Origin: a virus
Direction: 5' to 3' (one strand)
DNA: 64,000 nt
Virus genome (UHGV): UHGV-0213393
Below the pieces are notes generated by a model that was not told where the DNA came from, ran no database searches, and saw nothing but the letters and a program-made list of their open reading frames with translations. Positions 611 through 63,171 of this stretch are shown piece after piece (positions within the stretch are counted from its first letter, which is position 1; the number at the start of each line of letters is the position of its first letter). Both the position numbers and the translations under genes were made by a program.

Positions 611-617
611 TAGATTT

Positions 618-640: not shown

Positions 641-666
641 ACTACTAAGTGACCGGACACAGCAAA

Positions 667-41799: not shown

Positions 41800-42245
41800 T
41801 GGGTGACTTTGGAAATTATTTCATTTTTATCATGGCATTTGTTGCCGTTATTGACCGTTTCTTATTTCGTCGCAAGAGTGTTGATATTTTGAGCATTGGC
41901 GAAGCTGTAGTGAAAGAGTCTGCTATAGCGTTTCCTGTGTCGCTTCGCGTTAAGCGAAGCTGGGTAAGCAATGCACAAATCGAATATTGGTTGCAGGACT
42001 TGAAAAATCCATCTGTGGTTATTTCGGGGAAAACAAGACCAGTTGACGCATCAAAACGCGGTGAGAGAGAAGAATATTTGCTCATCGACACGAAATATCT
42101 TGAGCCAGCGAAGTGGGATCTTAAGGTCACATTGACTAACGGTAATTGCCGCCTGAATCCGCTTTATCGCATTTTCCCTATCAATGACTGCATAGAACGC
42201 CAGTTTATGATTGAAAAGTGTGAAGGAGACTGGAATGTCAAATAA
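41799..42245 (+). CDS. hypothetical membrane-anchored protein (antiholin candidate)
   Basis: N-terminal hydrophobic helix; start overlaps upstream stop (TAATG). Confidence 0.35.
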   Translation: MGDFGNYFIFIMAFVAVIDRFLFRRKSVDILSIGEAVVKESAIAFPVSLRVKRSWVSNAQIEYWLQDLKNPSVVISGKTRPVDASKRGEREEYLLIDTKYLEPAKWDLKVTLTNGNCRLNPLYRIFPINDCIERQFMIEKCEGDWNVK

Positions 42246-42852
42246 GTCTAATTATGTTCTTCTTAATTATGATGAGTTAAACGAAAAGGGGCTGGCAAAA
42301 CTCGTCAAAGAAATCGGTAAAGGAGGCTACAAGATAGCGAGAGTGATCCCCGCCAGTAATGGCAGGAAGAAAGACGGGATCATGACGCGCACGTTTACCC
42401 TTATCGGAATCGATGAGCAGACGATGGACGTTCAGGTTAATGATACTGGTGATATTTCTGGTGTAAAACTGAACGGAAAAATTGTTCCTTTCAAGCCAGT
42501 TAAAACGCTGATGGCTTTAGGGCAATCACTGGCTGCTTTATTTAATAAAGGCGCATCATCATTTCAGAAATCATTGGCGCGTAAGTTAGCTCGTGCGGCG
42601 AAATATATTGATGATGGGAATAAGAAAATAAAAGGCGTTAAGTCCAATGCGCAGAAACTAGCAGAGGCAAAGGAATCTCGCGATGCGATCCGCGAGGATA
42701 TTGAAAGGGCCAAAGAAAAATTAAATCAGGTGCAAGGTAATTCAGACCGCGCAACAAGAGAAACTGAAATCATTAGAACCGAGATGGCGCAGGAACTGGC
42801 GAAAACTCGCGTATTGAAAGAAGAAATAGCGCGCCTGGAGGAAGATGCATGA
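42235..42852 (+). CDS. hypothetical coiled-coil protein
   Basis: Start at MSNKSNYV after GGAGA RBS. Confidence 0.4.
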   Translation: MSNKSNYVLLNYDELNEKGLAKLVKEIGKGGYKIARVIPASNGRKKDGIMTRTFTLIGIDEQTMDVQVNDTGDISGVKLNGKIVPFKPVKTLMALGQSLAALFNKGASSFQKSLARKLARAAKYIDDGNKKIKGVKSNAQKLAEAKESRDAIREDIERAKEKLNQVQGNSDRATRETEIIRTEMAQELAKTRVLKEEIARLEEDA

Positions 42853-44801: not shown

Positions 44802-45166
44802 AAATATCAGTAACGGAGCGCCTTAGCTTAGGCAAAGAACTGTCTGAGCTGATGTCAGCGCAAAAAAGCGCGACTGCGGTACAACGTGTCACTATTGGCG
44901 TGCGGATAGTTGAAGTGATGATGAAGCTGGGGCTTGGTTCATCGAATAATCCAGCACAACAGCAAGAAGAGGAAGTGCAACCGGCGGCACAAGAAACGCC
45001 TAAAATTGTTGCTGACTTCCTTAGTGGTGCATTTACTAAATCATCACAAATGGAGTTCATCGATGCTTTGAGAGGCATATCTCAATATATTGGTGAATTT
45101 TTGACACTCGATCAGGCCAAAGAACAGACCGTAAACTGGGTTTCAGCTAACGGGTACGCAGCGTGA
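44795..45166 (+). CDS. hypothetical protein
   Basis: ORF overlapping the end of the upstream gene. Confidence 0.4.
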   Translation: MVKISVTERLSLGKELSELMSAQKSATAVQRVTIGVRIVEVMMKLGLGSSNNPAQQQEEEVQPAAQETPKIVADFLSGAFTKSSQMEFIDALRGISQYIGEFLTLDQAKEQTVNWVSANGYAA

Positions 45167-45176
45167 AAGAAAGGGG

Positions 45177-45198
45177 CAGCAATGCCCCATTTTTAATC
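45177..45198 (+). terminator. rho-independent terminator GGGGCA-GCAA-TGCCCC plus T5
   Basis: Hairpin and T run read from sequence. Confidence 0.55.
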
Positions 45199-45955
45199 AG
45201 AAAATAATGTCGTCAACCTTTATATTATTGTTTATTTTACTTCTGAGAACGGCTATCTGGATCACTGCAGGTATTGTAACGCGATAAGCTGTGCCCCCAA
45301 TGTCAACTAACGTCCATGCGGCCGTTATTGCCCATCCAATTGGACCGGCTAAAAGGCTTACTATTCTAACTAAAGTAGCATTTGCTGCAATTGTTAAACC
45401 ACGACCGATCAATGCCTTTAGTATAACATTGGCTAACATAACTGTAATTTGATATGATCGGAATCCGCCACTATTAAAAATATATTGTATTGCAGCCAGC
45501 ATCGCTTCACGATTGAATGTTTTTAAGTTTACTAAGCCAAATTCTAAAGCAAGTTCTTTTATGTCTTGCTGCGACATCTTATCTAAAGCATCACTTAAAA
45601 TCTTCATAAGAAGATTTCTCTCAATCACACCCACTTCGCTTTCAGAATTAAAGTTTACTTTTAGCCTTTTACATACATCAATAAGAATTTCTTTATAGTA
45701 AACTCCTTTTCCACCACGCAACAATGTTGCAAATGTATTTCCACCATAGCATTGGATTTCGGCTGCAATTTCACGCCAGTATAAGCTATGTTGAGGTCTA
45801 AATTGCTTATATAGTGGGTTGTTTGATAATTCTTCAGTCCAGCGTTTTTTCCCATCGCTGTCATAAATCAACAGATTGACCAGATCATCTAGATCACAAT
45901 CGCTGCACTGCGATAAAAATGTTAAATCTCTATCTGCGCGATAAGCCATATCCAC
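45197..45955 (-). CDS. hypothetical protein with C-terminal hydrophobic helices
   Basis: Soluble N-terminal region then two hydrophobic segments (ITVMLANVILKALIG...LLAGPIGWAITAAWTLV); AT-rich. Confidence 0.5.
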   Translation of the reverse strand: MDMAYRADRDLTFLSQCSDCDLDDLVNLLIYDSDGKKRWTEELSNNPLYKQFRPQHSLYWREIAAEIQCYGGNTFATLLRGGKGVYYKEILIDVCKRLKVNFNSESEVGVIERNLLMKILSDALDKMSQQDIKELALEFGLVNLKTFNREAMLAAIQYIFNSGGFRSYQITVMLANVILKALIGRGLTIAANATLVRIVSLLAGPIGWAITAAWTLVDIGGTAYRVTIPAVIQIAVLRSKINNNIKVDDIIF

Positions 45956-45966
45956 ACTCCACTTGC

Positions 45967-46428
45967 TTAAATAATGTTTACACCTAACTTATTGACAATA
46001 ACCATATAAATTGTTGAGCATTTTGTTATGCTGTCTTTATATTCTTTTGTTAATATTTCCTCCAAATGCTCACCAACAAATTTCCTCATAATATTATTCA
46101 TTGTATGTAGCTTGGTATATATATTTTTCCCATCTATAAGATTATCACGCTCAACAGGTGAATAAGATACTACCCAGCCTTTTTCAATTAACACCCGTGC
46201 GGACTCTGTAGATATGTTAAGTAGGACGCATGGATCTATATCCACAACCTTACAAAACTTTAACATATTCTCTACTGAGAGAGCCGATTTACCATTTTCA
46301 ATTTTCCCCCAACCAGCACTTGTCATACCTAGCTTGTTTGCTATGTCTAATTGGGTGATTCCTTTCTCCTCGCGAAGGTCTCGAATATGAAATGCCAAAA
46401 TTGTCAAATAAGATGTTTTCATCATCAC
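45967..46428 (-). CDS. XRE-family helix-turn-helix regulator
   Basis: N-terminal HTH ITQLDIANKLGMTSAGWGKIENGKSALSVENMLKFCKVV. Confidence 0.6.
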   Translation of the reverse strand: MMMKTSYLTILAFHIRDLREEKGITQLDIANKLGMTSAGWGKIENGKSALSVENMLKFCKVVDIDPCVLLNISTESARVLIEKGWVVSYSPVERDNLIDGKNIYTKLHTMNNIMRKFVGEHLEEILTKEYKDSITKCSTIYMVIVNKLGVNII

Positions 46429-46743
46429 CCTCCGATATCTACCATGATACTAATTTTTTATTAAACTGCAAGTTTAATAAACTGGGTGTAGCACTGATTT
46501 TCTGTTAGAGATGTCGATGAGATAAATTCGGTTGATATTTATCCTGTAAAAATGGGGGAGGGGGGGAAGGGCTTAACCTCATGATGTTCGAAGACAAAAC
46601 AGAACAAAGTGATTTCAGGCTGAAAACCTGACCTGGCTGCTGGACACCCCGGATAACCTCCGGGGGATTCGGTATTTCTTCTTTGAATAGAGCGTTTTTA
46701 ACAAATACCCCGTAAATCCTCGCCCAGCCAGGGCGGGGAGCAG

Positions 46744-47175
46744 TCACCGCATTGGTGTGACAGATACGGCGATATTTTTATTCAGTTGATGCAGTGCCAG
46801 CTCGACAGTTTCAACTTTTGATGAATGTTCGACGTCGAGAAGCCGATCAATCTGTGTTCCATTTTTTCCGAGTTTGCGCGCCAACTCTGCTTTGCGTGTG
46901 CCGGTTTCTATCATCGCGTTGTGGAGTGCAGCCTTCATTGCTGGTAGCACTGGCAAAGAGACAACGTACTCACCTTCTTTTGGCTCGCTACCAGTGGGCA
47001 CAGGTCGGCGTTCTTCAATCTCAATCGCAACCGCTGCGACCAATCCATAACCAGCCTCAAGCAACGCTTCTTCAACTGATTCACCCACGGAATTAAACAA
47101 TGGTAGGTCGCGGCATGATACGACATACGCGCCGGTTCTGTCGTCGCGCTCCAGCTTTACCGGAAAGTTAAACAT
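46744..47175 (-). CDS. hicB: HicB-family antitoxin
   Basis: MFNFPVKLERDDRTGAYVVSCRDLP N-terminus and C-terminal HTH (KAELARKLGKNGTQIDRLL) resemble E. coli HicB. Confidence 0.75.
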   Translation of the reverse strand: MFNFPVKLERDDRTGAYVVSCRDLPLFNSVGESVEEALLEAGYGLVAAVAIEIEERRPVPTGSEPKEGEYVVSLPVLPAMKAALHNAMIETGTRKAELARKLGKNGTQIDRLLDVEHSSKVETVELALHQLNKNIAVSVTPMR

Positions 47176-47185
47176 AAAGAAGCTC

Positions 47186-47254
47186 CTAGTGAAAAAGGCT
47201 GGGGCTTAAAGCCCCCTGGTCCTTCATTATTTTCTTGCGTAGCGGTTCAGGCAT
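47186..47254 (-). pseudogene. hicA: probable hicA 3' remnant (22 codons) immediately upstream of hicB
   Basis: Minus-strand translation MPEPLRKKIMKDQGALSPSLFH resembles the HicA C-terminus (EPLRKAILKQLGL) as I recall it; abuts the IS end. Confidence 0.4.
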
Positions 47255-48660
47255 TTCCTTTGAACCGTGGCCCGGGAAAAACGACCGCTTTCCGTTCAGG
47301 TTCGCTTTCTGATGACTGCCGCCACCAGGCGCTTTCGTGACTGCTCCCCGCCCTGTCGGGCAAGGCTTCCCACTTCTCAGGCCGCAACCGTCTGTTCGAC
47401 GGATTTACGCTGGCCTCCATGGACAGAAACGACGAGTCCCGCCGCCTTTAGTTCCAGTATTCCTTTTTGCCGGATGTTGAGTGCCGCATTGATATCGCGG
47501 TCATGTTCTCCTCCACATTCAGGGCATCGCCAGATGCGTTTATGAAGTGGCATTTCCGGCGTTTTGTAACCACAACAATGGCACGTTTTCGAACTGGCAA
47601 ACCACTGGTCGAGTTTTACCAGGTGAACGCCTTTTGTCGCTGCCTTGTACTCCAGCTTTGTGATGAAGCTGTGCCAGCCAGCATCACCTATCGCTCTTGC
47701 CAGATTGTGGTTTTTCATCATGTTGGCTGTTTTCAGCGTCTCCACAATTACCGCTTGGTTTTCGTCGACAATCGCGCGAGAGAGCTTGTGTTGAAAATCA
47801 GCACGGGCATTCGCCACCCGTTCGTGTAAGGCCGCAAGACGGATTCTGGCCTTTTTACGATTCGCGCTTCCCTTTTGCTTACGGGATAATGCTTTTTGTT
47901 TGCGTCGCAGATTACGACCTGCATTGATGAGATGGCGAGGATTCGGAACTTTTACAGCATCAGAAGTGATGGCATAGTGCTCCAGCCCCATATCCAGACC
48001 TGTAATCTTTTCTTCCTTCAGGTACGTGGGTTTCTCTGGTGCGGAAGCGCCATCGTCACGAAGAATGGAAGCGTAGTATTTCCCCGTTGCAGAACGGGTG
48101 ACAGTGATGCTTTTCAGCTTTCCATGAAGTTCACGATGAAGGCGTGCTTCTATCGGGGCCAGTTTGGGGATTTTGATGGCATTATCCAGCACCTTAATCC
48201 CGACACAGTGATAGCTCGATTGTTTTCCGTGTTTGCGTTTAAACGTCGGGAACCGCGCTTTCAGCTTCGGATTAAAAAAGTTGGAAAATGCCACATCAAG
48301 ATTGATTACCGCCTGTTGCAATGCCATTGAATCAAATTCTTTGAGCCAGGCATACTTACGGGACTTCTTCGCTACAGACAGCAACGGCTTCAAATCTTTG
48401 CGCGGATTTAAATTCACCCCATATCGCCGGTAAGCGTGTTTTTTGATGTGAAGAGCTTTATTGTACGCAAAGCGTACCGCGCCGAACTGGGCATTGAGAT
48501 ACTTTGCCTGTTCCGGTGTTGGATAGATGCGTACTTTTGTTGCTCTTAACATAGTCACTGCTCATTGGTACAGGTTTTTATGCTAACACCGTAATAATAT
48601 TTTTAAAGCCCTGTGGGCTTTTCCGCCTTTCCTCCCCGCCCGCATTGGGCGAGGGTTCTC
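47255..48660 (-). mobile_element. IS200/IS605-family element carrying tnpB only (IS1341-like); boundaries approximate
   Basis: TnpB ORF flanked by subterminal regions sharing CTCCCCGCCC (about 47343 and 48632) and hairpins; no tnpA. Confidence 0.55.
47377..48558 (-). CDS. tnpB: TnpB (OrfB) RNA-guided endonuclease-type transposon protein
   Basis: 393 aa with C-terminal zinc finger CHCCGYK...CPECGGEHDRDINAALNI and typical basic N-terminus. Confidence 0.8.
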   Translation of the reverse strand: MTMLRATKVRIYPTPEQAKYLNAQFGAVRFAYNKALHIKKHAYRRYGVNLNPRKDLKPLLSVAKKSRKYAWLKEFDSMALQQAVINLDVAFSNFFNPKLKARFPTFKRKHGKQSSYHCVGIKVLDNAIKIPKLAPIEARLHRELHGKLKSITVTRSATGKYYASILRDDGASAPEKPTYLKEEKITGLDMGLEHYAITSDAVKVPNPRHLINAGRNLRRKQKALSRKQKGSANRKKARIRLAALHERVANARADFQHKLSRAIVDENQAVIVETLKTANMMKNHNLARAIGDAGWHSFITKLEYKAATKGVHLVKLDQWFASSKTCHCCGYKTPEMPLHKRIWRCPECGGEHDRDINAALNIRQKGILELKAAGLVVSVHGGQRKSVEQTVAA

Positions 48661-53401: not shown

Positions 53402-54109
53402 ATGGATATCTGCATTCTCGAAAAGCCATCAATGACCAGCATTGAGATCGCGGAGCTGGTGGGAAGTCGTCCAGATAACGTAAAAATATCAATAGAGCGC
53501 CTGGCTAAATCTGGAGTTATTCAACTTCCTGCATTGCAGGTTTTCGAAAAAATCAATAACTTAGGACTACGCCGTAGTGTCGAGGCTTACGTCTTCGAAG
53601 GCGAGCAAGGCAAGCGCGATAGTATTATCGTCGTCGCGCAGCTCTCTCCCGAATTCACCGCCCGGCTGGTGGACCGCTGGCGCGAACTGGAAGAACAAGT
53701 ACGCCAGCCGTTGACCGAAATAGAGATGATCGCTGCAATGGCTGCAAATGCAGTTCAGCAGCAAAAGCGGCTTCATGTTGTTGAGTCAAAGGTTAGCCAG
53801 GTTGCTGAAACCGTCGAGCAAATAAAGAAAGGCAATATTCCGGAAGGCTACATTGGCTATCGCCAGTTAGCGGCGAAATGCGGCCTGACTGAAGCCAAAT
53901 GCCGCAACCTGGTCAACGCTTACCAGATCCCCACAGATACTCATGAGTTTTTGACGCCAGAGGGGGTATTGTCGCGTCGTACTATTGTGGCCTTATCTCC
54001 CTTCATGAATGCCTTTACCCTGATGATGTCGGAGGCTGAACACCGAGGAAAACGCTGGTATCACCCAAGGATGGGGCAATTCCAGGTGATCGGTTGGGGA
54101 GGCGAGTGA
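53402..54109 (+). CDS. rha: Rha-family phage regulatory protein
   Basis: N-terminal MTSIEIAELVGSRPDNV typical of Rha; likely start at the internal MTSIEIAEL. Confidence 0.75.
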   Translation: MDICILEKPSMTSIEIAELVGSRPDNVKISIERLAKSGVIQLPALQVFEKINNLGLRRSVEAYVFEGEQGKRDSIIVVAQLSPEFTARLVDRWRELEEQVRQPLTEIEMIAAMAANAVQQQKRLHVVESKVSQVAETVEQIKKGNIPEGYIGYRQLAAKCGLTEAKCRNLVNAYQIPTDTHEFLTPEGVLSRRTIVALSPFMNAFTLMMSEAEHRGKRWYHPRMGQFQVIGWGGE

Positions 54110-54306
54110 TGGACATCATGCAGGCGGTAAAAAAAATCAGGGAAGGACAGGCTGAAGTGTGCCGCCGTGAAGCATGGAGTGTTGGTGTATGGGTCTGGCC
54201 TGATAATTGCTCTACTACCGGATGGTTTTGTATTAATGGATGCCAGATCCGGGAAGTCGATTTATCGACGGCGGATGCAGTCGGTAATGATTGGATCGTA
54301 ACTTGA
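54094..54306 (+). CDS. small Rha-associated protein
   Basis: Overlaps the rha stop by 16 nt in another frame; homologous segment is fused in frame in the first copy (5-610). Confidence 0.5.
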   Translation: MGRRVMDIMQAVKKIREGQAEVCRREAWSVGVWVWPDNCSTTGWFCINGCQIREVDLSTADAVGNDWIVT

Positions 54307-54314
54307 AGTGTGAT

Positions 54315-54338
54315 GCCCCGGCCTGGCCGGGGCTTTTT
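54315..54338 (+). terminator. rho-independent terminator GCCCCGGCC-T-GGCCGGGGC plus T5
   Basis: Hairpin and T run read from sequence. Confidence 0.55.
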
Positions 54339-54829
54339 CATACCTCATTAGTTGAGGTCGCTGCGTCTCCGACTGGTAACAGAGCTGTATTGCGTGGTTC
54401 TCCAGTAGGCCAGCGATAGCCAGACACTCTTGATGTGGGGAATGCGCGAATATTAACAGCATCCCCCTGGTTCCCACCCAAGACAAGCAGATCGCCATTG
54501 GCGCGGCGTCCGACAACAAAGCCTACATGCCCACCGCCTGTGCGAGTAAATACAACGATACATCCATATGCCGGTGTATCTAATTTCTCGCCCCAATCCA
54601 GATAGGATTTTGCCGACTCAAATCTTGTTGAGCGGATGCCTACACGTTCCAGCATTGCACCAACAAATGCAGCGCACCACGGCGTTTCGTCGTCTTTAAT
54701 TCCGCTGCGCTTAATATCCCGCCAGAACTGGACGATCTCAGGATTGTGTTTCGCTCCTTTTATTTCGGTGACTCCAATATTTTTACGGGCTTCAATAAGC
54801 CAGCGAGGTTCATTATTGATCATAATCAT
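54338..54829 (-). CDS. cysteine-peptidase-type peptidoglycan hydrolase (CHAP/NlpC-P60 superfamily)
   Basis: Candidate catalytic Cys (ETPWCAAFVG) and His (GGHVGFVV); N-terminus MIMINNEPRWLIEARKNIGVTEIKG typical of this phage-associated family. Confidence 0.55.
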   Translation of the reverse strand: MIMINNEPRWLIEARKNIGVTEIKGAKHNPEIVQFWRDIKRSGIKDDETPWCAAFVGAMLERVGIRSTRFESAKSYLDWGEKLDTPAYGCIVVFTRTGGGHVGFVVGRRANGDLLVLGGNQGDAVNIRAFPTSRVSGYRWPTGEPRNTALLPVGDAATSTNEV

Positions 54830-55016
54830 GCTCCGAATGAAAAAAGAGCAATAACTATGTTGAGAATGTGATTTCTATTACACCAAACATTATTAAACGG
54901 CATTCATCTTTAACTTTATTCAATGTATTATCTAACAGAAAAGTTAAACTGCGCTAAGTTAGTGATAACATTGGTTATTGTTAGCTTGCGTTATCTATTT
55001 GAGTAAAGAGATTGTC

Positions 55017-55490
55017 ATGAAAAAAACAATATTAGCGGCTATTGTTTGTGCATTTGCATTATCAGGATGTGCGCCTATTCAAAAGCAAGTCGTAAAACGC
55101 CCTGCATTTCCCGTAGAAGAGTACCAGGCATTGCCGAAAGAAGGCACTGGCAAGGTTAAGGGGGAGTTATTTGGTATGACGCGTGGCGGCGATGTGAAGA
55201 TTGGGGCTGGTTCTAAAATTACTCTCCGCCCATATACGACGTATATCAAAAACACCCCACAAATTAATTACAATACGCAGATCTTGGAAACAATCGATGG
55301 CCGGGCTGTGGAATATGACAAAACTGTCCTGACAGATGCTCAAGGCAAATTTGAATTTGAAAACGTACCACCAGGCCAATATGAGGTGTTTGGTTCGTTC
55401 AGTTGGTATGCAGGTAATTATCCGCAAGTTATTATTCTGGATGAAATCATCACCGTTAAGAACGGGGATGTTATCCAGGTACAACCATGA
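55017..55490 (+). CDS. lipoprotein
   Basis: Signal peptide with lipobox MKKTILAAIVCAFALSGC. Confidence 0.6.
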   Translation: MKKTILAAIVCAFALSGCAPIQKQVVKRPAFPVEEYQALPKEGTGKVKGELFGMTRGGDVKIGAGSKITLRPYTTYIKNTPQINYNTQILETIDGRAVEYDKTVLTDAQGKFEFENVPPGQYEVFGSFSWYAGNYPQVIILDEIITVKNGDVIQVQP

Positions 55491-55585
55491 TCCCTTTTGA
55501 GTAAGAACCTTCGGGGTGTGATTCTGCGAAATTAACACACTCCATACCCTCTCAAACCGTACCGCTTAAGGCGGATTTAACGGTT

Positions 55586-58500
55586 TTGAGGGGGCTTCCT
55601 TTGGACAAAATAATTGATTCAATTAGCCAGGCCACCAGCATTGGGGCGCTGATTGAAATTGTTAGTCGGTTGCATAAACCGCGAGCTGTAGTGACCTTTG
55701 GCGTTAAGAAAGTCGATGGCGTCAGTATTCAGAAAACACGCCGGGCAGCAAACAACGCCGCAGTAAATCTTCTTAATTCCCTTCCGCCTGGCTTCGATGG
55801 GGCGAAATTAACTGACGAACAGCGCCAGATTCTTGCCGGGTATACCGGTGAAGGCGGCCTGACAGATGGTGAGGGCAGCCAATACGAATACTATACGCCA
55901 CAGTTTATGGCAGAAGGTATATGGGATCTCTTCGGCGACTACGGTATTGATAGCGGTCACGTACTGGAACCGTCAGCAGGCACAGGTATTTTCCAGGAGA
56001 CAAAACGGCAGGGCATGATAATGACCAGCGCCGAACTGTCTCCGATCTCCGGTCGAATAAACCAGCTTTTGCACCCGGAAGATGATGTGAATATCGGGGC
56101 GTTTGAGGCGCTGGCGGCGAAAGATGCAATGTATGACCACGCAGTTGGTAACGTACCGTTTGGCGAAGGGCGTTCCGGCGTCGCCGGGCTTGATCCGGCA
56201 TATGCAAACGAGAAGAACGTTGGCAATTATTTTGTGCTGCGCACGATCGACAAGGTTAAGCCTGGTGGACTAATTGTATTGGTGGTGCCGAATGGCATGA
56301 CCGATGGTACGAAATACAAAAAATTGCGCGATAAAGTCAGCCGTAAAGCGGAATTTTTGGGCGCGCATCGTATGCCTTCTGGTACGTTCAGCGAATCCGG
56401 TACAGATACCGTGGTGGACGTATGGGTATTGCGTAAACACCCGGAAACCTTCCTGGAGATGATCCCCGACACGGATGATGCAACGCTCAAATCGGCAAAC
56501 GTCCTTTGGGATACCTTCCTCAAAGGGAAATGGTTTACAACCGAAGGGAAGCGATTTGTTTACGGCGACATGGAACGCACCAGCTTCCGCAATACCCTGG
56601 TGGTGAAAAAGGACGGTCGTGTATCCAATGAGTCGATGAAAACCGCGTTATCACGCCGCTTTGAAAGCCGTATTAATTGGGATTTGCTCGGAGTAACTAC
56701 CCAGGCATGGCAGGGCGCAAAAGTAGGGGATAAGCGTCTTGTAGGCGGTATCTGGCATGAGTTTGATGGCCTGAAATGGGTTAAGGACACGACAACCAAA
56801 TCCTCCGCGCTTGATGTAAGTCGATATGGTGTTTCGACGTTTGGCGATCTGCAGATCGCGTTCCAGTCAACAAACGGGATTCTGGCTTTGTCATGGGACC
56901 AGATATCGGCGATCGCGTCCGACTATCCATCGGTTGTCAGTGATGAAGTGGCAGCAATGATTCGCTTTGCTGGCAAACAGCGAGAAAAAGACAGGGAGCG
57001 CGTTATGCGCGGTGCGTTGATAGGGCAGTTGATCAACAAGGCACTTGATTTGCGTAACCTGGGGGTGAACGTTGATGACAAACTGGCAGATGCATCCCGT
57101 CTGGCGGCAGCAGAAGTTGCGAAGTATGGACCACCGCACGCGATTAAGCTGAATGGGCTTGCTGAAGCTGGCGCTAAAAACTGGATGACGTTCACTGGCA
57201 ATGTGAAACAGGATGGTTCCACTTCTGACCTTCTGGCAGGGCGACTTGATGTAACGGATGGTGCTGCCGGTATTGACTTTACACGTCCGGAACAAGTGAT
57301 AGCACATCTTTTCAGTGATGTAGCCCTTAATCCTATAACGCTGGGCGACTTTCGTGAGGCGTTTGCTGGTGAACTGCCAGAGGACGACGACGCGGCCCTT
57401 GAATACCTGGCGAAATTTGATGATATCGCTATTGATGGGTATGGCTGCCTGCTGCCGATGGACCGCGCCACCAGCGGCGATATTGTAACCAAAACAGCAT
57501 TGCTGGTGGGCTGGCGTGATGCATCAACAGGTGAGCAGAAAGCGAACTTTGAGCGTCAGTTGGCGAAAATCGAAGAGAAACGCATTTTCACGCCACTAAA
57601 TAAAGTCACCGTTAATCTGAACGCCCGCTGGCTGGATCGCCGCTTGATAAAAGAGTTCCTGGCAGAGCAGGGCTATGACGAGTTTAAGTACACTGAACCT
57701 GATCTGAAGGTCGTCGATGGCATTCTGGTATCTCCGGACGATTACGAAGGTAAGGACGGGGTATTTACCGGCTATCAGCTACGAACCGTAAACGGCAAAA
57801 ACGGGAATGAGTTCAAGAAGGCCAACAATAAAGACGGCTTCCTGAACCAGTTAGAAAACTACCTGAACGGTGTTAAACCGCGTGGGCAGAACGCTAACGA
57901 GTACCTGGATAAAATTGCTCAACTGGAAGTTAGCTTTAACGACTGGTTACGCACCCACCCGCAGGCGGATCAGATAGCCCGTGACTATAACGACGCATTC
58001 AATGGCTTCATTCCGTTCACGCACTCTAACGCACCGCTTGGCCTGGAAGGGATTAGTGGAAAGCGCATTCCTCTGACTTATCAGAATGAAGAAGTTCGTC
58101 GCTTGTCAGAAGATGGGCGCGGCATCATGGGATTTGGTACCGGGCTGGGTAAAACCACGACCGCGCTTGCGCTTGAGGCGTATAACTTCGAAACAGGTCG
58201 TACTAAACGCACGTGTATTGTTGTTCCGAAGGCGGTTTATCAGAACTGGTATCACGAGGCACAGAGCTTCTACAGTGCTGATGCCTTCGCCAATATGATG
58301 TTTATCGGTCTGGATGAAGTTCGTGATGACAGCGGAAATATTCTGACCGCTCCGGTGCTTGATGAAAATGGCGAACCCCGCCTCGACAGTAACGGGCAGC
58401 CTCTTACCAGAAATGTTGTGAAAGAGTCCGCCAGCGCCGTTATCGTTCAGCGCATGAACATGATCCCGTCGTCAAATTGGCGAACGGTCATCATGACAAA

Positions 58501-61500
58501 AGAACAATTCGCGTCTATCCCGCTACGAGAAAAAACCATCGAGGAGAACTCACAGCAAGCTGTCTTTAATGCTGTGGAAATGGGGCGTCTTGACCTGGCG
58601 TCTGGTAAACACCGTGATGCGCAGAAGAAGAACAAGATTAAGGATCAGGCCGCGAATACCGGTACAACGAAGAAGCAGAATATCCCGTACTTTGAGGATA
58701 TGAACTTCGATAGCGTGATAGCCGACGAGGGGCATAACTACCGCAACTCCTTTAATGCCGGGCGTGAAGCGGGACAACTGGCATATTTGCCTAACCCGGC
58801 AGTATCCAAGATGGCCCGCGACATGGCTGTAAAAGCTGCGTACATGATGAAACGCAACAACGGGCGTGGTGTAGTCATGCTGACGGCAACACCGCTGGTG
58901 AACAGTCCGATTGATGCCTTCAACATGCTGTCTACTGTCATTCCGCAGGAAGAGTGGATGCGCATGGGCATCATTACGCCTGATGATTTCGTTCGTGTGT
59001 TTGGTAAAACAGCCACAGTTCAGGTCCAGAAAATTTCCGGGGAAGTGGAAGAGAAGCAGGGGCTGGTTGGCTTCCAGAACCTTGATGGCCTGCGTGGTAT
59101 TTTCCATCGCTGGACTACTCTGAAGACTGCTGCGGACGTCGGGGCGACGGTTAAAATCCCTGATATTGTCGAGAATACCTTGCAGATCCCGATGACAGGG
59201 GAGCAGGAGGCTGCTTATGAAGAGCTTCGTAAGCGTGCACAGGAGTTAAGTAGTAAAGATGCGCTGACGGTTGATGAAAACGGGCATATCACAAACGAAA
59301 AACCGGATGATTTCATCTTCTCCATCATCCGCGACATGGATAAGGTTGCTATAGATCCGGATCTGTATGCCAGTGCGATTACATTCCAGTTCCCCGTTGA
59401 GCTTGCAGACAAGGTAAAAGCTATTGCTGATGCCCTGCCAAAAGTAGCTGGCGGTAAAGTGGCAGATGATGCAGACGAGGCCGAAGAAGACGGCGCTGGT
59501 GGGCTGGTTAGTACGCGCACCAGTAAGGTAGTGAAGACCACCTTTAGTGAACATCCGGCGCATGTTGAAATACGTGCCAGCATTGAACTGGAAGCTGAAA
59601 TACTGAAGGCCATTGCTGCCGCCGGGATTGATATGCAGCAGGTATCACACCCAATCCCGCCGAAGTATGCCGCGCTGATCGAAAACCTTCGTGAAGGTCT
59701 GAAGAACGGTAAACAAATTGTCTTCATTGATGAAAAAGCCCAGCACCAGAAGCTGCGCCGTATTATCGCCAGTGCACTGCAAATGCCGGAGCAGGAGATA
59801 GGCATTATCAATGCGACGACCGTTAGCCAGGCTGGCGGCATCAAGCTGAAGAAGGTGAATAAGCCGACTGAACCTACTCCGAATAAAAATGGTGAATACA
59901 AAGAAGGGGCATGGGAAACCTACTACAGCAAACTTGCCCAATATGAGGATTATCTCTCAGCTAAAAATGATGCTGGCCTTGAGGGTATGGAAGGCATTGC
60001 CGCCGACTATAACGAAGGGCGCACGCGCATAATTATCTGTAACAAGAAGGCTGAAGTAGGTATTAACCTGCATATCGGGACAACCGATATCCACCACCTG
60101 ACACTACCCTGGACACCAGCCAGTATCGACCAACGAAATGGGCGCGGTGCGCGCGTAGGTTCACCGCAAGAGAAGGTCAATGTTCACTACTATTGTGGCA
60201 AAGGCACATTCGACGACTTCCGTCTGGATACGCTGAAACGTAAGAAAGACTGGATCAAGATGGTGATGACCTCCGACATGTCAGAGATCGCCAATGGTGA
60301 TGCGGATGATGCTGATGAACGCGCCATTATGCTGGCGGCAAACCCGGAAGAACGCCGCGCAATCATGGCTCGCCAGACGCAAGAGCGTGAAGAACGTCTG
60401 AAACTGAAAGCACAGCGCGAGGCCAACAATGCTCTCGATATCTACCTGAAAGCGGCAAACGCCGCTGGAAAAGATATCGGCATGATGGAGACAGAACTGA
60501 AAAGCGCGATGGAACAGATAGAGTATTACCAGCGAAATCTTGACGACCTGATAAAAGCGGGTACGAACAGGAATGGGCAAAAATTCGCGCTTGAGCAGTT
60601 GAGTAGCTACAGAAAACGTGCGCGGGTGCTGCGGTTTGCGATCACCAGGGCAAAAGACGCGGATACCATAATGAAACGCTCTCGTGGTGATGTGGAGCGC
60701 GCTATTAAGTCTGGTGTGCTGGATATCAGTATCGATGTTATTCAGAACCCACAGGAATATATGCGCACTGACAAGAATATCCTGTTGCATAAAGGTAGTT
60801 ATTACCGTGCAGTCATTGATGATCGCGAAACAACAGCGATTGTCCGGGTGGAAAAAATTGACGGTGAAAAAGCACAATACCTCTGCCGTATCGCCTGGCT
60901 GGATAGAGCAAGTCGTTACGCTCGAGCACCGGGGTCAATCGTTACATTGCCGTTTGACTCTGTGATTGAAGCGGTAACTTTTGAAGAGGGGGTAGCTGAA
61001 TCGCGCGCAACGGCTGCGCGTGGTGTTCAGTGCCACCAGCTATCAACAATACTTACTCGCGATCAGTTCTATGATGCTATTCGCAATGGGGTAATGAATG
61101 TTATTGCTGGTAAACCTGGTAATGCATGGGGCGGTGGGTCAGCTATTAAATACTGGGCATATCGCACAGATGATGGTCAGATCGCGCTGTCATCGGCCTA
61201 TGATGGCGTGATAGGCCAAAAAATCGGGCGAGCATCGGATATAGCACCTGAACGATGGATATATCCAGATGGCAACGATGAGGCGCTGAAGCGTGAAGTG
61301 GCAAAAATACAAGCCAGTGATAACCCGCTGAATATCGTGGACGGCGAGGGATTCCTCCAGGCATTGTATGGGTATGATTACATCCAGGGAATGCAGGCAT
61401 GGGGCGCACAGGCAACGATGGATGATGTTGTCCAGGAGTTCGAAAACTGGATGGCTGGGCGTGGTCTGTCAGGTCGTTCGCTTAATAAAGTCACTTCTGA

Positions 61501-62437
61501 GGATATTCTTAGCTTGTTCCGCAAACCGTCCGGAGAAGGTCTGGAATCATTCTGGAGGACCGTGCTGGCATACCGTTTATTCAAGGGCAGAATGAAAGCC
61601 TTTAGCAATATCGATGATATTGAACGGATGTTTAATCAGGTCAAGATCGCCAAAATTAAGACGAAGATCGAAAAAACACGTTCTGCGCTGGTGGCCTGGC
61701 GCGATGCATTGTTTGAGCAATATAAATCACTCAGTGATGCAGATGGATGGGCGGCATTGGAACAGTTGGCGAATAATGGGGTAGATGGAGCGAAACTCGC
61801 CATAGTTCAGGCTGATAACCCCCTGGAATCACCGGCAGCACAGTGGATTAAGGTGGGGGCTGTCATCAATGCATTTGATGAAAAACACATTAGTAAGGAC
61901 GATTTTGCTGATGCTGTTTCTGTTAATCGCCTGGTAGAAATGGCTACCCGCCGCGCCCGTGAGTTGAAAGACGGTGACTATGTGAATGAGTTGCCGGATG
62001 CGCTCAAATCAGCAACGTGGCAAGACTATGTATCGCTGAAAAACGGCGGGGCCACCGAATCAGAGATCGCGGAAAGGCTTGAACAGGCTGAAAGCAAAAG
62101 AGAAGAGCAGGCGGCAGTGGCTGAAGCCAGAGCTGATGAAGCGGCGAATGATGACTATATCATTGTGGTTAATGATAAGCCGATTCGCGCTAAGGCGCGT
62201 GTTCGCGGGCGCTGGTGGAGTGTCAGCGAGGACGTCGGTGCGGTTTATCTCATTGCCGACCAACCAGGTTCCTCGACAATACGGAACGCCAAAGACGCGA
62301 TTAAGAAGATTGGCGGGCGTTTCTGGAATTTTGAAGCAAACCCGGTTGCTGATGTGAACTTTGACCGTCCTGCATGGATGGTATCTACGCGTTACTCGGT
62401 AGATGAACTGCGTAAAATAATCGCCGATGCGGCCTAA
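55586..62437 (+). CDS. darB: DarB-like giant N6-adenine methyltransferase / SNF2-type helicase fusion (anti-restriction candidate)
   Basis: 2283 aa; MTase motifs VLEPSAGTGIF and GNVPFG at the N-terminus; helicase motifs GFGTGLGKTT, DEGHNYRN, LTATPL, QRNGRGARVG; TTG start, no nearby ATG. Confidence 0.75.
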   Translation: MRGLPLDKIIDSISQATSIGALIEIVSRLHKPRAVVTFGVKKVDGVSIQKTRRAANNAAVNLLNSLPPGFDGAKLTDEQRQILAGYTGEGGLTDGEGSQYEYYTPQFMAEGIWDLFGDYGIDSGHVLEPSAGTGIFQETKRQGMIMTSAELSPISGRINQLLHPEDDVNIGAFEALAAKDAMYDHAVGNVPFGEGRSGVAGLDPAYANEKNVGNYFVLRTIDKVKPGGLIVLVVPNGMTDGTKYKKLRDKVSRKAEFLGAHRMPSGTFSESGTDTVVDVWVLRKHPETFLEMIPDTDDATLKSANVLWDTFLKGKWFTTEGKRFVYGDMERTSFRNTLVVKKDGRVSNESMKTALSRRFESRINWDLLGVTTQAWQGAKVGDKRLVGGIWHEFDGLKWVKDTTTKSSALDVSRYGVSTFGDLQIAFQSTNGILALSWDQISAIASDYPSVVSDEVAAMIRFAGKQREKDRERVMRGALIGQLINKALDLRNLGVNVDDKLADASRLAAAEVAKYGPPHAIKLNGLAEAGAKNWMTFTGNVKQDGSTSDLLAGRLDVTDGAAGIDFTRPEQVIAHLFSDVALNPITLGDFREAFAGELPEDDDAALEYLAKFDDIAIDGYGCLLPMDRATSGDIVTKTALLVGWRDASTGEQKANFERQLAKIEEKRIFTPLNKVTVNLNARWLDRRLIKEFLAEQGYDEFKYTEPDLKVVDGILVSPDDYEGKDGVFTGYQLRTVNGKNGNEFKKANNKDGFLNQLENYLNGVKPRGQNANEYLDKIAQLEVSFNDWLRTHPQADQIARDYNDAFNGFIPFTHSNAPLGLEGISGKRIPLTYQNEEVRRLSEDGRGIMGFGTGLGKTTTALALEAYNFETGRTKRTCIVVPKAVYQNWYHEAQSFYSADAFANMMFIGLDEVRDDSGNILTAPVLDENGEPRLDSNGQPLTRNVVKESASAVIVQRMNMIPSSNWRTVIMTKEQFASIPLREKTIEENSQQAVFNAVEMGRLDLASGKHRDAQKKNKIKDQAANTGTTKKQNIPYFEDMNFDSVIADEGHNYRNSFNAGREAGQLAYLPNPAVSKMARDMAVKAAYMMKRNNGRGVVMLTATPLVNSPIDAFNMLSTVIPQEEWMRMGIITPDDFVRVFGKTATVQVQKISGEVEEKQGLVGFQNLDGLRGIFHRWTTLKTAADVGATVKIPDIVENTLQIPMTGEQEAAYEELRKRAQELSSKDALTVDENGHITNEKPDDFIFSIIRDMDKVAIDPDLYASAITFQFPVELADKVKAIADALPKVAGGKVADDADEAEEDGAGGLVSTRTSKVVKTTFSEHPAHVEIRASIELEAEILKAIAAAGIDMQQVSHPIPPKYAALIENLREGLKNGKQIVFIDEKAQHQKLRRIIASALQMPEQEIGIINATTVSQAGGIKLKKVNKPTEPTPNKNGEYKEGAWETYYSKLAQYEDYLSAKNDAGLEGMEGIAADYNEGRTRIIICNKKAEVGINLHIGTTDIHHLTLPWTPASIDQRNGRGARVGSPQEKVNVHYYCGKGTFDDFRLDTLKRKKDWIKMVMTSDMSEIANGDADDADERAIMLAANPEERRAIMARQTQEREERLKLKAQREANNALDIYLKAANAAGKDIGMMETELKSAMEQIEYYQRNLDDLIKAGTNRNGQKFALEQLSSYRKRARVLRFAITRAKDADTIMKRSRGDVERAIKSGVLDISIDVIQNPQEYMRTDKNILLHKGSYYRAVIDDRETTAIVRVEKIDGEKAQYLCRIAWLDRASRYARAPGSIVTLPFDSVIEAVTFEEGVAESRATAARGVQCHQLSTILTRDQFYDAIRNGVMNVIAGKPGNAWGGGSAIKYWAYRTDDGQIALSSAYDGVIGQKIGRASDIAPERWIYPDGNDEALKREVAKIQASDNPLNIVDGEGFLQALYGYDYIQGMQAWGAQATMDDVVQEFENWMAGRGLSGRSLNKVTSEDILSLFRKPSGEGLESFWRTVLAYRLFKGRMKAFSNIDDIERMFNQVKIAKIKTKIEKTRSALVAWRDALFEQYKSLSDADGWAALEQLANNGVDGAKLAIVQADNPLESPAAQWIKVGAVINAFDEKHISKDDFADAVSVNRLVEMATRRARELKDGDYVNELPDALKSATWQDYVSLKNGGATESEIAERLEQAESKREEQAAVAEARADEAANDDYIIVVNDKPIRAKARVRGRWWSVSEDVGAVYLIADQPGSSTIRNAKDAIKKIGGRFWNFEANPVADVNFDRPAWMVSTRYSVDELRKIIADAA

Positions 62438-62473: not shown

Positions 62474-62908
62474 ATGACGACATTAATTGACACTGTAAAA
62501 CCGACGGAATCCTACCTTGAGGACATTTTGCCGCAGGCGCTCAATGGCAGGAGTGAAGAGGCGTTTCTGGATGCATATCTGGATGGCATGGCGGAAAGGC
62601 TGAAAAGAGATCCACAGCTTTATCATCTTTATGGGCCGTGGTGGCCTGCGCTTAAAACGTTATTGCTGGAGCGTGGCGACATATCATTTGGACAAGTTGT
62701 AGATAGTGATGTGGCAGAAATCTACAAAATGAGTCGCCCGGCGCTTACGGTTTTAGCCGGGCATCTGTATTCGAGCGATCGCCTGGAAAATGACGCGGTA
62801 TACAATCCCGTTCATGCTCTGGAAGTCGCGCCTTATGCTGATGATACAGAGCCATACGTATACACAAGTTACGACGAATCTATAGAGAAATATCGAATCG
62901 TGGGGTAG
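62474..62908 (+). CDS. hypothetical protein
   Basis: ORF after the darB-like gene. Confidence 0.45.
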   Translation: MTTLIDTVKPTESYLEDILPQALNGRSEEAFLDAYLDGMAERLKRDPQLYHLYGPWWPALKTLLLERGDISFGQVVDSDVAEIYKMSRPALTVLAGHLYSSDRLENDAVYNPVHALEVAPYADDTEPYVYTSYDESIEKYRIVG

Positions 62909-62910
62909 CC

Positions 62911-63171
62911 ATGCGGAAGAATCGTAGGTTTACGATCGACGACTTAAAAGCGTACTCACAAGGGAAGGGATACGCCCTTGAATACCACCGTTATAAGCGG
63001 GTATTTACCCTGCGGCATATAGAAAACCCTTCGAAATGGGGATGGATTTATTTTCCGCACACTGACGATAAGCTGGTGGGACTTGTTGATGATTTATCCT
63101 ATGAAGGATGGATGATTGCTATCGACAAGGCGGTTACGGAAATTAACGAACCTGATAAAATAAACCATTAA
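62911..63171 (+). CDS. hypothetical protein
   Basis: ORF coupled to the upstream gene. Confidence 0.4.
   Translation: MRKNRRFTIDDLKAYSQGKGYALEYHRYKRVFTLRHIENPSKWGWIYFPHTDDKLVGLVDDLSYEGWMIAIDKAVTEINEPDKINH

What the first reader, a model, noticed from the sequence alone, without database searches (positions are those of the whole stretch)
54338..62437. 2283-aa DarB-like methyltransferase-helicase with TTG start, preceded by a peptidase and a lipoprotein
One ORF encodes an N-terminal gamma-class N6-adenine MTase motif pair (EPSAGTG, then NVPF) and a complete SNF2/DExH helicase motif set (GKT, DEGH, TATP, QRNGRGARVG), with about 700 residues of unassigned C-terminal sequence. Size and architecture match P1 DarB (from memory), a capsid-packaged protein that protects injected DNA from type I restriction. 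There is no ATG near the 5' end; the track start is TTG, with a second TTG 15 nt downstream after a GAGGGGG. The divergent CHAP-type peptidase and the lipoprotein just upstream are not explained.
Basis: partly seen in the sequence, partly recalled or inferred. Interest (0 to 1): 0.55.

Follow-up and report, generated by a model that had tools for sequence, protein, structure and literature searches.

The report
DarB anti-restriction gene of D6-like prophage
The giant gene is the already-annotated DarB (methyltransferase plus SNF2 motor) of a D6/P1-type plasmid prophage, a head-packaged protein thought to shield injected phage DNA from type I restriction; its two unexplained neighbours are the phage's endolysin and an inserted cargo lipoprotein, so the finding is real but ordinary.

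Summary
Observation confirmed. Its translation is 98% identical to the annotated darB-like gene of phage D6. It is 43% identical and collinear with P1 DarB. The window is a D6-like plasmid prophage, closest to E. marmotae plasmid NZ_CP056699.1.

The real start is almost certainly the second TTG (55601, 2278 aa). It has the SD GAGGGGG 6 nt upstream, and it is the codon conserved in relatives and aligned with the P1 ATG.

Both enzymatic modules are invariant across family members sharing 34-55% identity. The "unassigned" C-terminal third is a DarB-family-specific module with no informative fold match.

Partners Hdf, DarA, DdrA and Ulx are encoded in the window; DdrB is absent.

The CHAP peptidase is the element's endolysin. 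It belongs to TIGR02594, has a late-promoter motif, is 60% identical to the protein in a holin-endolysin-spanin cassette, and no P1-type Lyz is present. The lipoprotein is a PA1324-like cargo gene in a variable slot between two divergent late promoters. It is absent from D6.

One possibly new detail: in the D6-like clade, a covarying leader hairpin pairs the darB SD with the -10 region of its own late promoter.

Main finding: already known. Interest is low to moderate.

The parts
55601..62437 (+). darB coding sequence from its likely start (TTG), 2278 aa plus stop. The maximal ORF starts at TTG 55586.
   Evidence: The start is supported by the D6 and PGAP annotations and by conservation of this TTG down to 72% identity relatives. 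The first TTG is absent outside the window-type lineage.
55601..55690 (+). First 30 codons, positionally equivalent to the P1 DarB capsid-targeting sequence.
   Evidence: Aligns without gaps to P1 DarB residues 1-30. In P1 these 30 residues suffice to target a reporter to the capsid (PMC9024508). Function here is inferred.
55847..55858 (+). GEGG (aa 83-86), the GXGU motif of the N-terminal LPD36-type domain.
   Evidence: G83, G85 and G86 are invariant in 7 family representatives. Motif definition from PMC5512222.
55889..56161 (+). Core of the gamma-class N6-adenine methyltransferase: YYTP (55889-55900), motif I EPSAGTG (55967-55987), motif IV NVPF (56150-56161).
   Evidence: NVPF is the family's variant of NPPF, and a Vibrio member has NPPF. 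Pfam N6_Mtase scores 20.1 vs a 20.4 cut-off. The best PDB sequence hit is a type I R-M methyltransferase subunit.
58142..60160 (+). SNF2-type ATPase/translocase: Walker A GLGKT (58142-58156), DEGH (58724-58735), TATP (58883-58894), motif VI QRNGRGARVG (60131-60160).
   Evidence: Pfam SNF2-rel_dom 4.8e-13, ResIII and Helicase_C. Motifs are invariant across representatives.
60218..62434 (+). DarB-family-specific C-terminal module (aa 1540-2278): helical bundle, beta-rich domain, helical domain and small C-terminal alpha/beta domain.
   Evidence: Only 26 hits among 1.84 billion representatives, and all full-length hits are 2192-2302 aa. AF2 model pLDDT 85.7. No informative fold match. A conserved YPDxxDxxLK motif lies near aa 1888-1897.
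55588..55594 (+). Shine-Dalgarno GAGGGGG, 6 nt upstream of TTG 55601.
   Evidence: Conserved in D6-like relatives.
55530..55550 (+). D6-type late-promoter motif (AATTAACACACTCCATA) with a putative -10 TACCCT at 55545-55550.
   Evidence: Motif AAWTMACANWSTSNRTA gives 9 hits in the window vs 0.4 expected. All hits are co-oriented with and upstream of genes, including capsid, lydA and portal. It is conserved upstream of darB in relatives down to 69% identity.
55547..55594 (+). Leader hairpin. The 5' arm CCCTCTCAAACCGT (overlapping the -10 and discriminator) pairs with ACGGTTTTGAGGGGG (which contains the SD). An inner stem CCGCT/GGCGG is also predicted.
   Evidence: RNAfold z = -4.6 in the window and -4.0 in D6, with none in P1. 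RNAalifold finds 13 pairs, 4 of them with compensatory double changes. 94.6% of cells are paired and the covariation score exceeds 500/500 shuffles. Cognate arms average -17.8 vs -11.0 kcal/mol for non-cognate arms, matched by only 2 of 720 permutations. No Rfam match.
54338..54829 (-). CHAP / TIGR02594 peptidoglycan hydrolase, the probable endolysin. It is soluble, with no N-terminal hydrophobic segment.
   Evidence: TIGR02594 scores 144.8 bits vs a 70.55 cut-off. Pfam CHAP. 60% identical over its full length to the protein in a holin-x-CHAP-Rz cassette of a Providencia prophage. No P1 Lyz homolog in the window or the whole related plasmid. Sequence.
54858..54874 (-). Late-promoter motif upstream of the endolysin gene.
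   Evidence: one mismatch.
55017..55490 (+). Cargo lipoprotein: signal peptide plus lipobox LSG|C, with Ala at +2, and a PA1324-like prealbumin/CarboxypepD_reg beta-sandwich.
   Evidence: AF2 pLDDT 90. Best PDB match is PA1324 (3qec), TM 0.68/0.73. It is absent from D6 and from most relatives. Homologs sit in unrelated mobile-element contexts.
62474..62908 (+). ulx homolog. In P1, Ulx is a Dar component that aids DarB localisation.
   Evidence: 46% identity to P1 Ulx and 98% to D6_14. PHROG 'Ulx-like anti-restriction' 4.5e-59. Role in P1 from PMC9024508.
42235..45166 (+). hdf (42235-42852), darA (42849-44801) and ddrA (44798-45166), the head-internal Dar proteins needed in P1 to load DarB.
   Evidence: tblastn with P1 and D6 proteins. 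A late-promoter motif at 41420 lies upstream of lydA-lydB-hdf-darA.
54315..54333 (.). Strong GC-rich terminator hairpin between the ant-type operon and the 3' end of the endolysin gene.
   Evidence: 8 GC pairs followed by a T run.

Best explanation
The ORF is the DarB ortholog of a D6-like, P1-family plasmid prophage. Translation most likely starts at TTG 55601 and gives a 2278-aa protein. From N to C it has a ~30-residue capsid-targeting region, an LPD36-type helical domain, a gamma-class N6-adenine methyltransferase, a DarB-specific linker, an SNF2-type dsDNA translocase, and a DarB-specific C-terminal module.

By orthology with P1, it is made late in infection. It would be loaded into the prohead on an Hdf/DarA-based internal scaffold with help from Ulx, and ejected with the DNA. 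It would then act in cis on the incoming genome to prevent type I (EcoK/EcoB-type) restriction. The favoured mechanism is ATP-driven tracking along the entering DNA coupled to adenine methylation or occlusion of target sites.

What is shown here: orthology, intact and conserved catalytic motifs, linked partner genes, and a late-promoter motif. What is inferred: packaging, ejection, anti-restriction activity and the biochemical mechanism, which is also unresolved for P1 itself.

The two neighbours are independent of DarB. The CHAP/TIGR02594 protein is the late-expressed endolysin of this phage type. The lipoprotein is a cargo (moron) gene inserted between the two divergent late promoters.

In the D6-like clade the darB SD is held in a covarying hairpin whose other arm overlaps the promoter's -10 region. 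My inference is that transcripts started at the late promoter lack the anti-SD arm and are translatable. Read-through transcripts, for example from the inserted lipoprotein gene, would be translationally silent.
For: Homology and synteny:
- 98% identity to D6_15 and 43% collinear identity to P1 DarB.
- PHROG families for DarB/DNA methyltransferase match at E = 0.
- More than 120 full-length family members of 2190-2320 aa lie on 80-100 kb contigs.
- Both catalytic motif sets and the LPD36 GXGU motif are invariant at 34-55% identity.
- ulx is immediately downstream and hdf-darA-ddrA are in the window.

Expression and start codon:
- The late-promoter motif is shared with the capsid, portal and lysis/dar operons, with 9 hits vs 0.4 expected.
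- TTG 55601 has an SD at 6 nt. It is conserved in relatives and aligned with the P1 ATG.

P1 biology, from the literature:
- DarB is a head protein at about 40 copies with an N-terminal 30-residue targeting signal (PMC9024508).
- Dar proteins are co-ejected and act in cis (PMC12810830; PMC12707154).
- The methylase-helicase dyad model comes from PMC5512222.

Endolysin.
Lipoprotein as cargo.
Hairpin.
Against: - No experimental data exist for this element. Virion association, ejection and anti-restriction are extrapolated from P1 at 43% identity.
- DdrB, listed for P1 as aiding DarB addition to the capsid, has no homolog in the window or in the complete related plasmid.
- The first 30 residues are only weakly similar to the P1 targeting signal.
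- The DarB mechanism is undefined even in P1. Plasmid-borne darB effects on EcoKI proved to be DNA-mediated artefacts (PMC11109961).
- For the hairpin model, the transcription start is not mapped.
- The SD pairing-probability test was not discriminating, because shuffled controls were also high.
- Only about 5 independent lineages support the covariation.
- D6 has the same hairpin although no co-oriented gene lies immediately upstream.
Confidence: 0.85

Rival explanations
1. The protein is a cell-acting defence or modification enzyme of the plasmid, such as a DISARM DrmD-like, BREX-like or type I/IIG-like methylase-helicase, rather than a virion-packaged anti-restriction protein.
For: There are weak partial NCBIfam hits to DrmD, DpdE and Dnd restriction helicases, and Pfam hits to N6_Mtase and Eco57I. 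The SNF2 plus methylase combination also occurs in defence systems (PMC5512222).
Against: The defence-family scores are far below their cut-offs (45 bits vs 610; 31.8 vs 500) and cover only the generic helicase C-lobe. No partner genes of those systems are adjacent. The gene is collinear and syntenic with P1 darB-ulx and carries a late-promoter motif.
Confidence: 0.04
2. It is a DarB ortholog, but the Dar system is crippled in this lineage because DdrB has been replaced by a HicA/TnpB/DUF3944 cassette. DarB would then be poorly packaged or non-protective.
For: No DdrB homolog is found in the window or in the whole plasmid. P1 DdrB is listed as aiding DarB addition to the capsid.
Against: The 2278-aa frame is intact and 98% identical to D6 with no gaps. 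All catalytic residues are conserved. D6 itself, a viable phage, has only a short 454-aa ddrB-like gene. Hdf, DarA, DdrA and Ulx are retained.
Confidence: 0.1
3. Translation starts at the first TTG (55586), giving the 2283-aa protein that the reader tracked.
For: It is the first start codon of the open frame.
Against: There is no SD upstream of it, and it lies inside the 3' arm of the leader hairpin. It is absent in D6-type, L030, L034 and L042 relatives, whereas the 55601 TTG is universal. P1 DarB Met1 aligns with codon 6. Five extra residues would also extend the N-terminal capsid-targeting region.
Confidence: 0.06
4. The leader hairpin is not a translational device. It could be a 5' mRNA stabiliser or processing site, or a by-product of a G-rich SD lying opposite a C-rich promoter region.
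For: A G-rich SD pairs readily with many sequences (shuffled controls). The transcription start is unmapped. D6 has the hairpin without an upstream co-oriented gene.
Against: Pairing is maintained in lineages whose arm sequences differ completely (L030, L034). Cognate arms are about 7 kcal/mol better than non-cognate arms. Compensatory changes exceed shuffles and slid controls. The SD is always at the base of the 3' arm (structures).
Confidence: 0.4

Closest known systems
Phage D6 gene 15 (ASR76325.1, 'defense against restriction; similar to P1 gene darB'), with the PGAP 'SNF2-related protein' of plasmid NZ_CP056699.1
   Same: 98% amino-acid identity over 2278 residues with no gaps. It has the same TTG start, the same SD and leader hairpin, the same divergent endolysin and the same downstream ulx.
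   Different: D6 has only ~150 bp between the endolysin and darB, with no lipoprotein. It also keeps a short ddrB-like gene that this element lacks.
Phage P1 DarB (AAQ13985.1, 2255 aa)
   Same: Collinear architecture: targeting region, LPD36, N6A-MTase, SNF2 and C-terminal module. 43% identity over ~1935 residues. ulx is downstream and hdf-darA-ddrA are elsewhere.
   Different: P1 uses ATG, an annotated sigma-70 promoter PdarB (-10 TAGAAT) and no leader hairpin. The C-terminal ~680 residues are only ~20% identical. P1 darB diverges from prt/pro, not from an endolysin. P1 has full-length DdrB and a SAR-endolysin Lyz.
Methylase-SNF2 'dyad' polyvalent proteins of phages and conjugative elements (Iyer et al. 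2017, PMC5512222)
   Same: LPD36 with GXGU, the TP motif, N(P/V)PF, and an SNF2 ATPase fused C-terminally.
   Different: The C-terminal third is restricted to P1/D6-type DarB proteins, with 26 hits in 1.84 billion representatives.
TIGR02594 / CHAP phage endolysins
   Same: Full-length match at 144.8 bits. 60% identity to a protein in a holin-endolysin-spanin cassette. Conserved Cys (PWCAAF) and His (GGGHVGF).
   Different: Here the gene is separated from the holin/antiholin genes lydA/lydB (~41.5 kb) and is transcribed from its own late promoter. PHROG also finds the domain at the C-terminus of large tail-hub proteins.
Pseudomonas aeruginosa PA1324 (PDB 3qec/1xpn), an envelope-stress-regulon lipoprotein with a prealbumin-like fold
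   Same: Lipoprotein signal, ~150-aa beta-sandwich, TM 0.68/0.73, 24% identity.
   Different: It is carried on phages, plasmids and integrative elements as cargo. No function has been tested. Polysaccharide binding is only postulated, even for PA1324.

Membership tests
P1 DarB family (head-packaged methylase-SNF2 anti-restriction proteins) | Full-length collinear sequence homology to P1 DarB | tested here: met
   43% identity for aa 6-1940 vs P1 1-1924. The terminal 135 aa are collinear, E 4e-4. PHROG DarB-type families match at E = 0 to 1e-79.
P1 DarB family | N-terminal LPD36-type domain with GXGU motif | tested here: met
   GEGG at aa 83-86, invariant in 7 representatives. Definition from PMC5512222.
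P1 DarB family | Gamma-class N6-adenine MTase motifs: TP cap, motif I, motif IV N-P/V-P-F/Y | tested here: met
   T99-P100, EPSAGTG 123-129 and NVPF 184-187 are all conserved. Pfam N6_Mtase is marginal at 20.1 vs 20.4.
P1 DarB family | SNF2-type ATPase with motifs I, II, III and VI | tested here: met
   Pfam SNF2-rel_dom 4.8e-13. GTGLGKT, DEGH, TATP and QRNGRGARVG are invariant.
P1 DarB family | Linked ulx and an hdf-darA-ddrA operon in the same genome | tested here: met
   tblastn gives Ulx 46%, DarA 39%, Hdf 40% and DdrA 35% identity to the P1 proteins.
P1 DarB family | DdrB present (sixth Dar component) | tested here: not met
   No hit to P1 DdrB or the D6 ddrB-like gene in the window or the whole related plasmid. 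This is a feature of the P1 system, not of the DarB protein itself.
P1 DarB family | N-terminal capsid-targeting sequence | tested here: inconclusive
   The first 30 residues align without gaps, but only S13 and a hydrophobic pattern are conserved. Function is known only for P1.
P1 DarB family | Late expression | tested here: met
   It shares the motif found upstream of the capsid, portal and lysis/dar operons. This is a sequence inference, not a transcript map.
P1 DarB family | Presence in virions, co-ejection, and cis protection against EcoK/EcoB | not testable with these tools
   Requires virion proteomics and plating assays.
DISARM DrmD / Dpd / Dnd defence helicases | Score above the NCBIfam equivalog cut-off, plus partner genes | tested here: not met
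   45.1 bits vs 610, 31.8 vs 500 and 27.7 vs 600. No partner genes are adjacent.
TIGR02594 / CHAP endolysin (for the peptidase) | Family HMM above cut-off, and a lysis-cassette context in relatives | tested here: met
   144.8 bits vs 70.55. A 60%-identical homolog lies between a holin and an Rz-type spanin. Muralytic activity was not tested.
PA1324-like envelope lipoproteins (for the lipoprotein) | Lipobox plus a prealbumin-like beta-sandwich superimposable on PA1324 | tested here: met
   LSGC lipobox, with C18 invariant. TM 0.68/0.73, Foldseek E 1.5e-11. Pfam CarboxypepD_reg is below its cut-off.

The most novel reading that the evidence does not exclude
In D6-like phages the darB leader may act as a promoter-embedded anti-SD switch. 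The sequence that pairs with the SD overlaps the -10 and discriminator of darB's own late promoter. mRNAs initiated there would lack the anti-SD arm and be translated. Any transcript entering from upstream would fold the SD away. Such transcripts could come from the cargo slot, or from read-through of the immunity operon in lysogens. This would restrict synthesis of a 250-kDa DNA methylase-translocase to the time of head assembly. A weak TTG start codon would add to the restriction.
Probability: 0.3. Interest if true: 0.45.

Novelty: already known. Interest (0 to 1): 0.25.

Why it matters
The main finding adds nothing new. DarB homologs in D6-like plasmid prophages are annotated in GenBank/RefSeq and in PHROGs, and the methylase-SNF2 dyad has been described. 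The analysis is useful in four smaller ways.

1. It fixes the start codon. This matters because the capsid-targeting signal is N-terminal.
2. It assigns the endolysin of this phage type and identifies a cargo slot between two late promoters.
3. It shows that a Dar system can lack DdrB.
4. It points to a covarying SD-sequestering leader that could explain how a potentially harmful giant DNA enzyme is kept silent in lysogens.

D6-like elements are common in clinical E. coli and Salmonella, so their anti-restriction equipment bears on phage-plasmid host range.

Tried and rejected
- The P1 late-promoter pattern (AAGTKAYTW-N4-TANNNT) is not found near darB, and its hits are not above chance.
- My first motif (AAYANNCTCCATA) was too strict and looked unique to darB. 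It was replaced by a consensus built from the lydA, prt and capsid upstream regions.
- The P1 C1-operator consensus gives 0 hits in the window, so an apparent ATTGCTCT near 54850 is not taken as an operator.
- The SD pairing-probability comparison of read-through vs late transcripts is not discriminating, because shuffled controls were also high. I did not use it as evidence.
- Rfam finds nothing in 54300-55800.
- The first homolog search with the C-terminal 679 aa returned only near-identical fragments.
- The sigma-70 scan found no promoter for the lipoprotein, and no terminator between it and darB.
- The D6 genome paper, Piya et al. 2017 and Lobocka et al. 2004 are not held in the library. 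I could not check whether the D6 late-promoter motif or the endolysin assignment is already published.
- Precomputed Pfam PF28555/PF28554 hits on family members could not be identified, because the local Pfam copy lacks them.


Full report
**Observation.** The ORF 55586-62437 (+) exists. Numbered from the TTG at 55601 these are YYTP 97-100, EPSAGTG 123-129, NVPF 184-187, GLGKT 848-852, DEGH 1042-1045, TATP 1095-1098 and QRNGRGARVG 1511-1520. Pfam finds SNF2-rel_dom (4.8e-13), ResIII and Helicase_C above threshold. N6_Mtase is just below threshold at 20.1 vs 20.4 bits. The divergent 163-aa CHAP protein (54338-54829, -) and the 157-aa lipoprotein (55017-55490, +) are also real.

**What the window is.** The region is 96.6% identical to phage D6, and the lipoprotein-containing intergenic stretch is 100% identical to Escherichia marmotae plasmid NZ_CP056699.1. 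The window is therefore a D6-like, P1-family plasmid prophage. D6 gene 15 is annotated 'defense against restriction; similar to P1 gene darB' and is 98% identical to the window protein over 2278 residues with no gaps. P1 DarB aligns collinearly at 43% identity (window 6-1940 vs P1 1-1924). The last ~135 residues also align end to end with P1 (27% identity, E 4e-4). PHROG families for DarB-type proteins match at E = 0.

**Start codon.** Homology with D6 and P1 begins at codon 6 of the maximal ORF, which is the second TTG (55601). The D6 GenBank and PGAP annotations start there too. GAGGGGG (55588-55594) lies 6 nt upstream. Among 33 viral-contig relatives the 55601 TTG is conserved down to ~72% identity, while the first TTG exists only in the window-type lineage. 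Across the wider family, TTG and GTG starts are common; P1 and a few other lineages use ATG. The protein is therefore most likely 2278 aa. This matters because in P1 the first 30 residues of DarB are the capsid-targeting signal (PMC9024508).

**Protein anatomy.** An alignment of the window protein with P1 DarB and five distant full-length representatives (34-55% identity) was examined for invariant residues. The following are invariant:
- the LPD36 GXGU motif (G83, G85, G86)
- the TP cap (T99-P100)
- motif I
- motif IV, as N-x-P-F
- Walker A
- DEGH
- motif III
- motif VI

NVPF is the family's variant of NPPF, and a Vibrio member has NPPF. This matches the 'DNA methylase-helicase dyad' of polyvalent proteins, for which DarB is the archetype (PMC5512222).

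**System context.** The window encodes Ulx immediately downstream (62474-62908), and Hdf, DarA and DdrA at 42235-45166. In P1 these proteins, with DdrB, form the head-internal Dar system. Hdf and DarA load first and DarB is added last, at about 40 copies per virion. The proteins are co-ejected and protect the DNA in cis from type I systems (PMC9024508; PMC12810830; PMC12707154). DdrB has no homolog in the window or in the complete related plasmid. At that position there is a minus-strand cassette of DUF3944, HTH, HicA and TnpB genes. The biochemical mechanism of DarB remains undefined even in P1, and plasmid-borne darB effects on EcoKI proved to be DNA-mediated (PMC11109961).

**Expression signals.** The P1 late-promoter pattern is not present near darB. 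Sequences upstream of lydA, prt and the capsid gene do resemble the darB upstream region. The derived consensus AAWTMACANWSTSNRTA, followed by TANNNT, gives 9 hits in the window against 0.4 expected by chance. All nine are co-oriented with and upstream of genes. One precedes darB (55530) and one precedes the peptidase on the minus strand (54874-54858). The motif is conserved upstream of darB in relatives down to 69% identity. More distant lineages, including P1, instead have TTAGAAT, the annotated sigma-70 -10 of P1 PdarB.

**Leader hairpin.** In the window, CCCTCTCAAACCGT (55547-55560) pairs with ACGGTTTTGAGGGGG (55580-55594), enclosing a small inner stem. RNAfold gives z = -4.6 for the window and -4.0 for D6, and finds no such structure in P1. 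Several results support covariation:
- RNAalifold on eight non-redundant leaders predicts 13 pairs, 4 of them with compensatory double changes.
- 94.6% of cells are paired. The covariation score is 0.187 against 0.101 in shuffles (0 of 500 reach it), and slid controls pair at only 35-65%.
- Lineages L030 and L034 have entirely different arm sequences that still pair.
- Cognate arms average -17.8 kcal/mol against -11.0 for non-cognate arms, and only 2 of 720 permutations match this.

The 5' arm overlaps the putative -10 (TACCCT, 55545-55550). My inference is that late-promoter transcripts start inside this arm and leave the SD free, while read-through transcripts sequester it. This is unproven. 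The start site is unmapped, a pairing-probability test was not discriminating, and no Rfam family matches.

**The peptidase.** It is a full-length TIGR02594 family member (144.8 bits against a 70.55 cut-off) with the CHAP Cys and His. It has no hydrophobic N-terminus and has its own late-promoter motif. It is 60% identical over its full length to the protein that sits between a holin and an Rz-type spanin in a Providencia lambdoid prophage. Neither the window nor the whole related plasmid has a homolog of the P1 endolysin Lyz, whereas the LydA and LydB holin/antiholin genes are present. It is therefore most likely the endolysin of this phage type. This agrees with the 'putative peptidoglycan hydrolase' annotation in D6 and the suggestion made for a Salmonella D6-like plasmid.

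**The lipoprotein.** D6 and most relatives have only ~150 bp between the endolysin and darB. The window, L010-L012 and about five plasmids carry the lipoprotein there. L013 and L042 carry an unrelated 123-aa ORF in the same slot. Homologs occur in three other settings: SSU5-like Klebsiella plasmids, next to an integrase and a transposase in a chromosome, and in the Q-to-lysis moron slot of a Providencia prophage. The family keeps a lipobox (LSGC) and a TRGGDVK...NVPPGxY core. The AlphaFold model (pLDDT 90) superimposes on P. aeruginosa PA1324 (TM 0.68/0.73). PA1324 is an envelope-stress-regulon lipoprotein with a prealbumin-like fold and postulated polysaccharide binding (PMC3372973). The lipoprotein is thus a cargo gene with no conserved link to DarB. 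Its function is open; envelope homeostasis and superinfection exclusion are both possible.

**Verdict.** The gene is an already-annotated ortholog, so novelty is low. Several side results are useful but modest: the corrected start codon, the endolysin assignment, the cargo slot, the missing DdrB, the D6-type late-promoter motif and the covarying SD-sequestering leader. Only the leader might be new biology.

Noticed in passing
window, whole (e.g. 55632, 57468, 57502, 59495, 61033, 61687, 62211 inside darB): Chi sites (GCTGGTGG) are strongly enriched. There are 30 in 64 kb (21 on the + strand, 9 on the - strand) against about 2 expected for random sequence, and 7 lie inside darB. P1 is reported to be Chi-rich, with 11 sites in its darB (PMC11109961).
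   Followed up: partly
window 45197-48558 (- strand): Between ddrA and the portal gene, where D6 has its ddrB-like gene plus orf24 and orf23, this element carries a minus-strand cassette of DUF3944 protein, HTH regulator, a hypothetical gene, HicA toxin and a TnpB RNA-guided endonuclease.
   Followed up: partly
window 8771, 17468, 20222, 29145, 36657, 41420, 48865 (+), 54874-54858 (-), 55530 (+): A D6-type late-promoter motif, AAWTMACANWSTSNRTA followed by TANNNT, marks the late operons. It gives 9 hits against 0.4 expected. It differs from the P1 late-promoter box in sequence and spacing.
   Followed up: yes
window 54830-55529; L013:1822-2430; L033: The space between the divergent endolysin and darB late promoters is a variable cargo slot. 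It is empty in D6 and L033, holds the lipoprotein here, holds an unrelated 123-aa ORF in L013 and L042, and holds a larger insert in L019.
   Followed up: partly
DarB family loci L047-L066 and L010-L042: Non-ATG start codons are common in the DarB family. TTG is used in D6-like lineages and appears to be used in Xenorhabdus, Chimaeribacter and others. GTG is used in Pantoea and Enterobacter lineages. ATG is used in P1 and Citrobacter.
   Followed up: partly
window 89-374 and 53801-54086: Two copies of an icd/ant-type immunity segment about 83% identical to each other are present. The related plasmid correspondingly has two Icd-like genes.
   Followed up: no
window, whole: EcoKI target sites (AAC-N6-GTGC) number only 3 in 64 kb, whereas EcoBI sites (TGA-N8-TGCT) number 17. 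About 8 of each would be expected for random sequence. Significance was not assessed.
   Followed up: no
proteins P0027-P0166: Precomputed Pfam hits PF28555 and PF28554 are recorded on most DarB-family proteins. These families are not in the local Pfam copy, so a recent Pfam release may already define a DarB-specific domain.
   Followed up: no
window 62911-63171 (+): A conserved 86-aa ORF follows ulx. It is a homolog of D6_13 (73% identity) and belongs to PHROG 6844, of unknown function. It replaces the position of lxc in P1.
   Followed up: no
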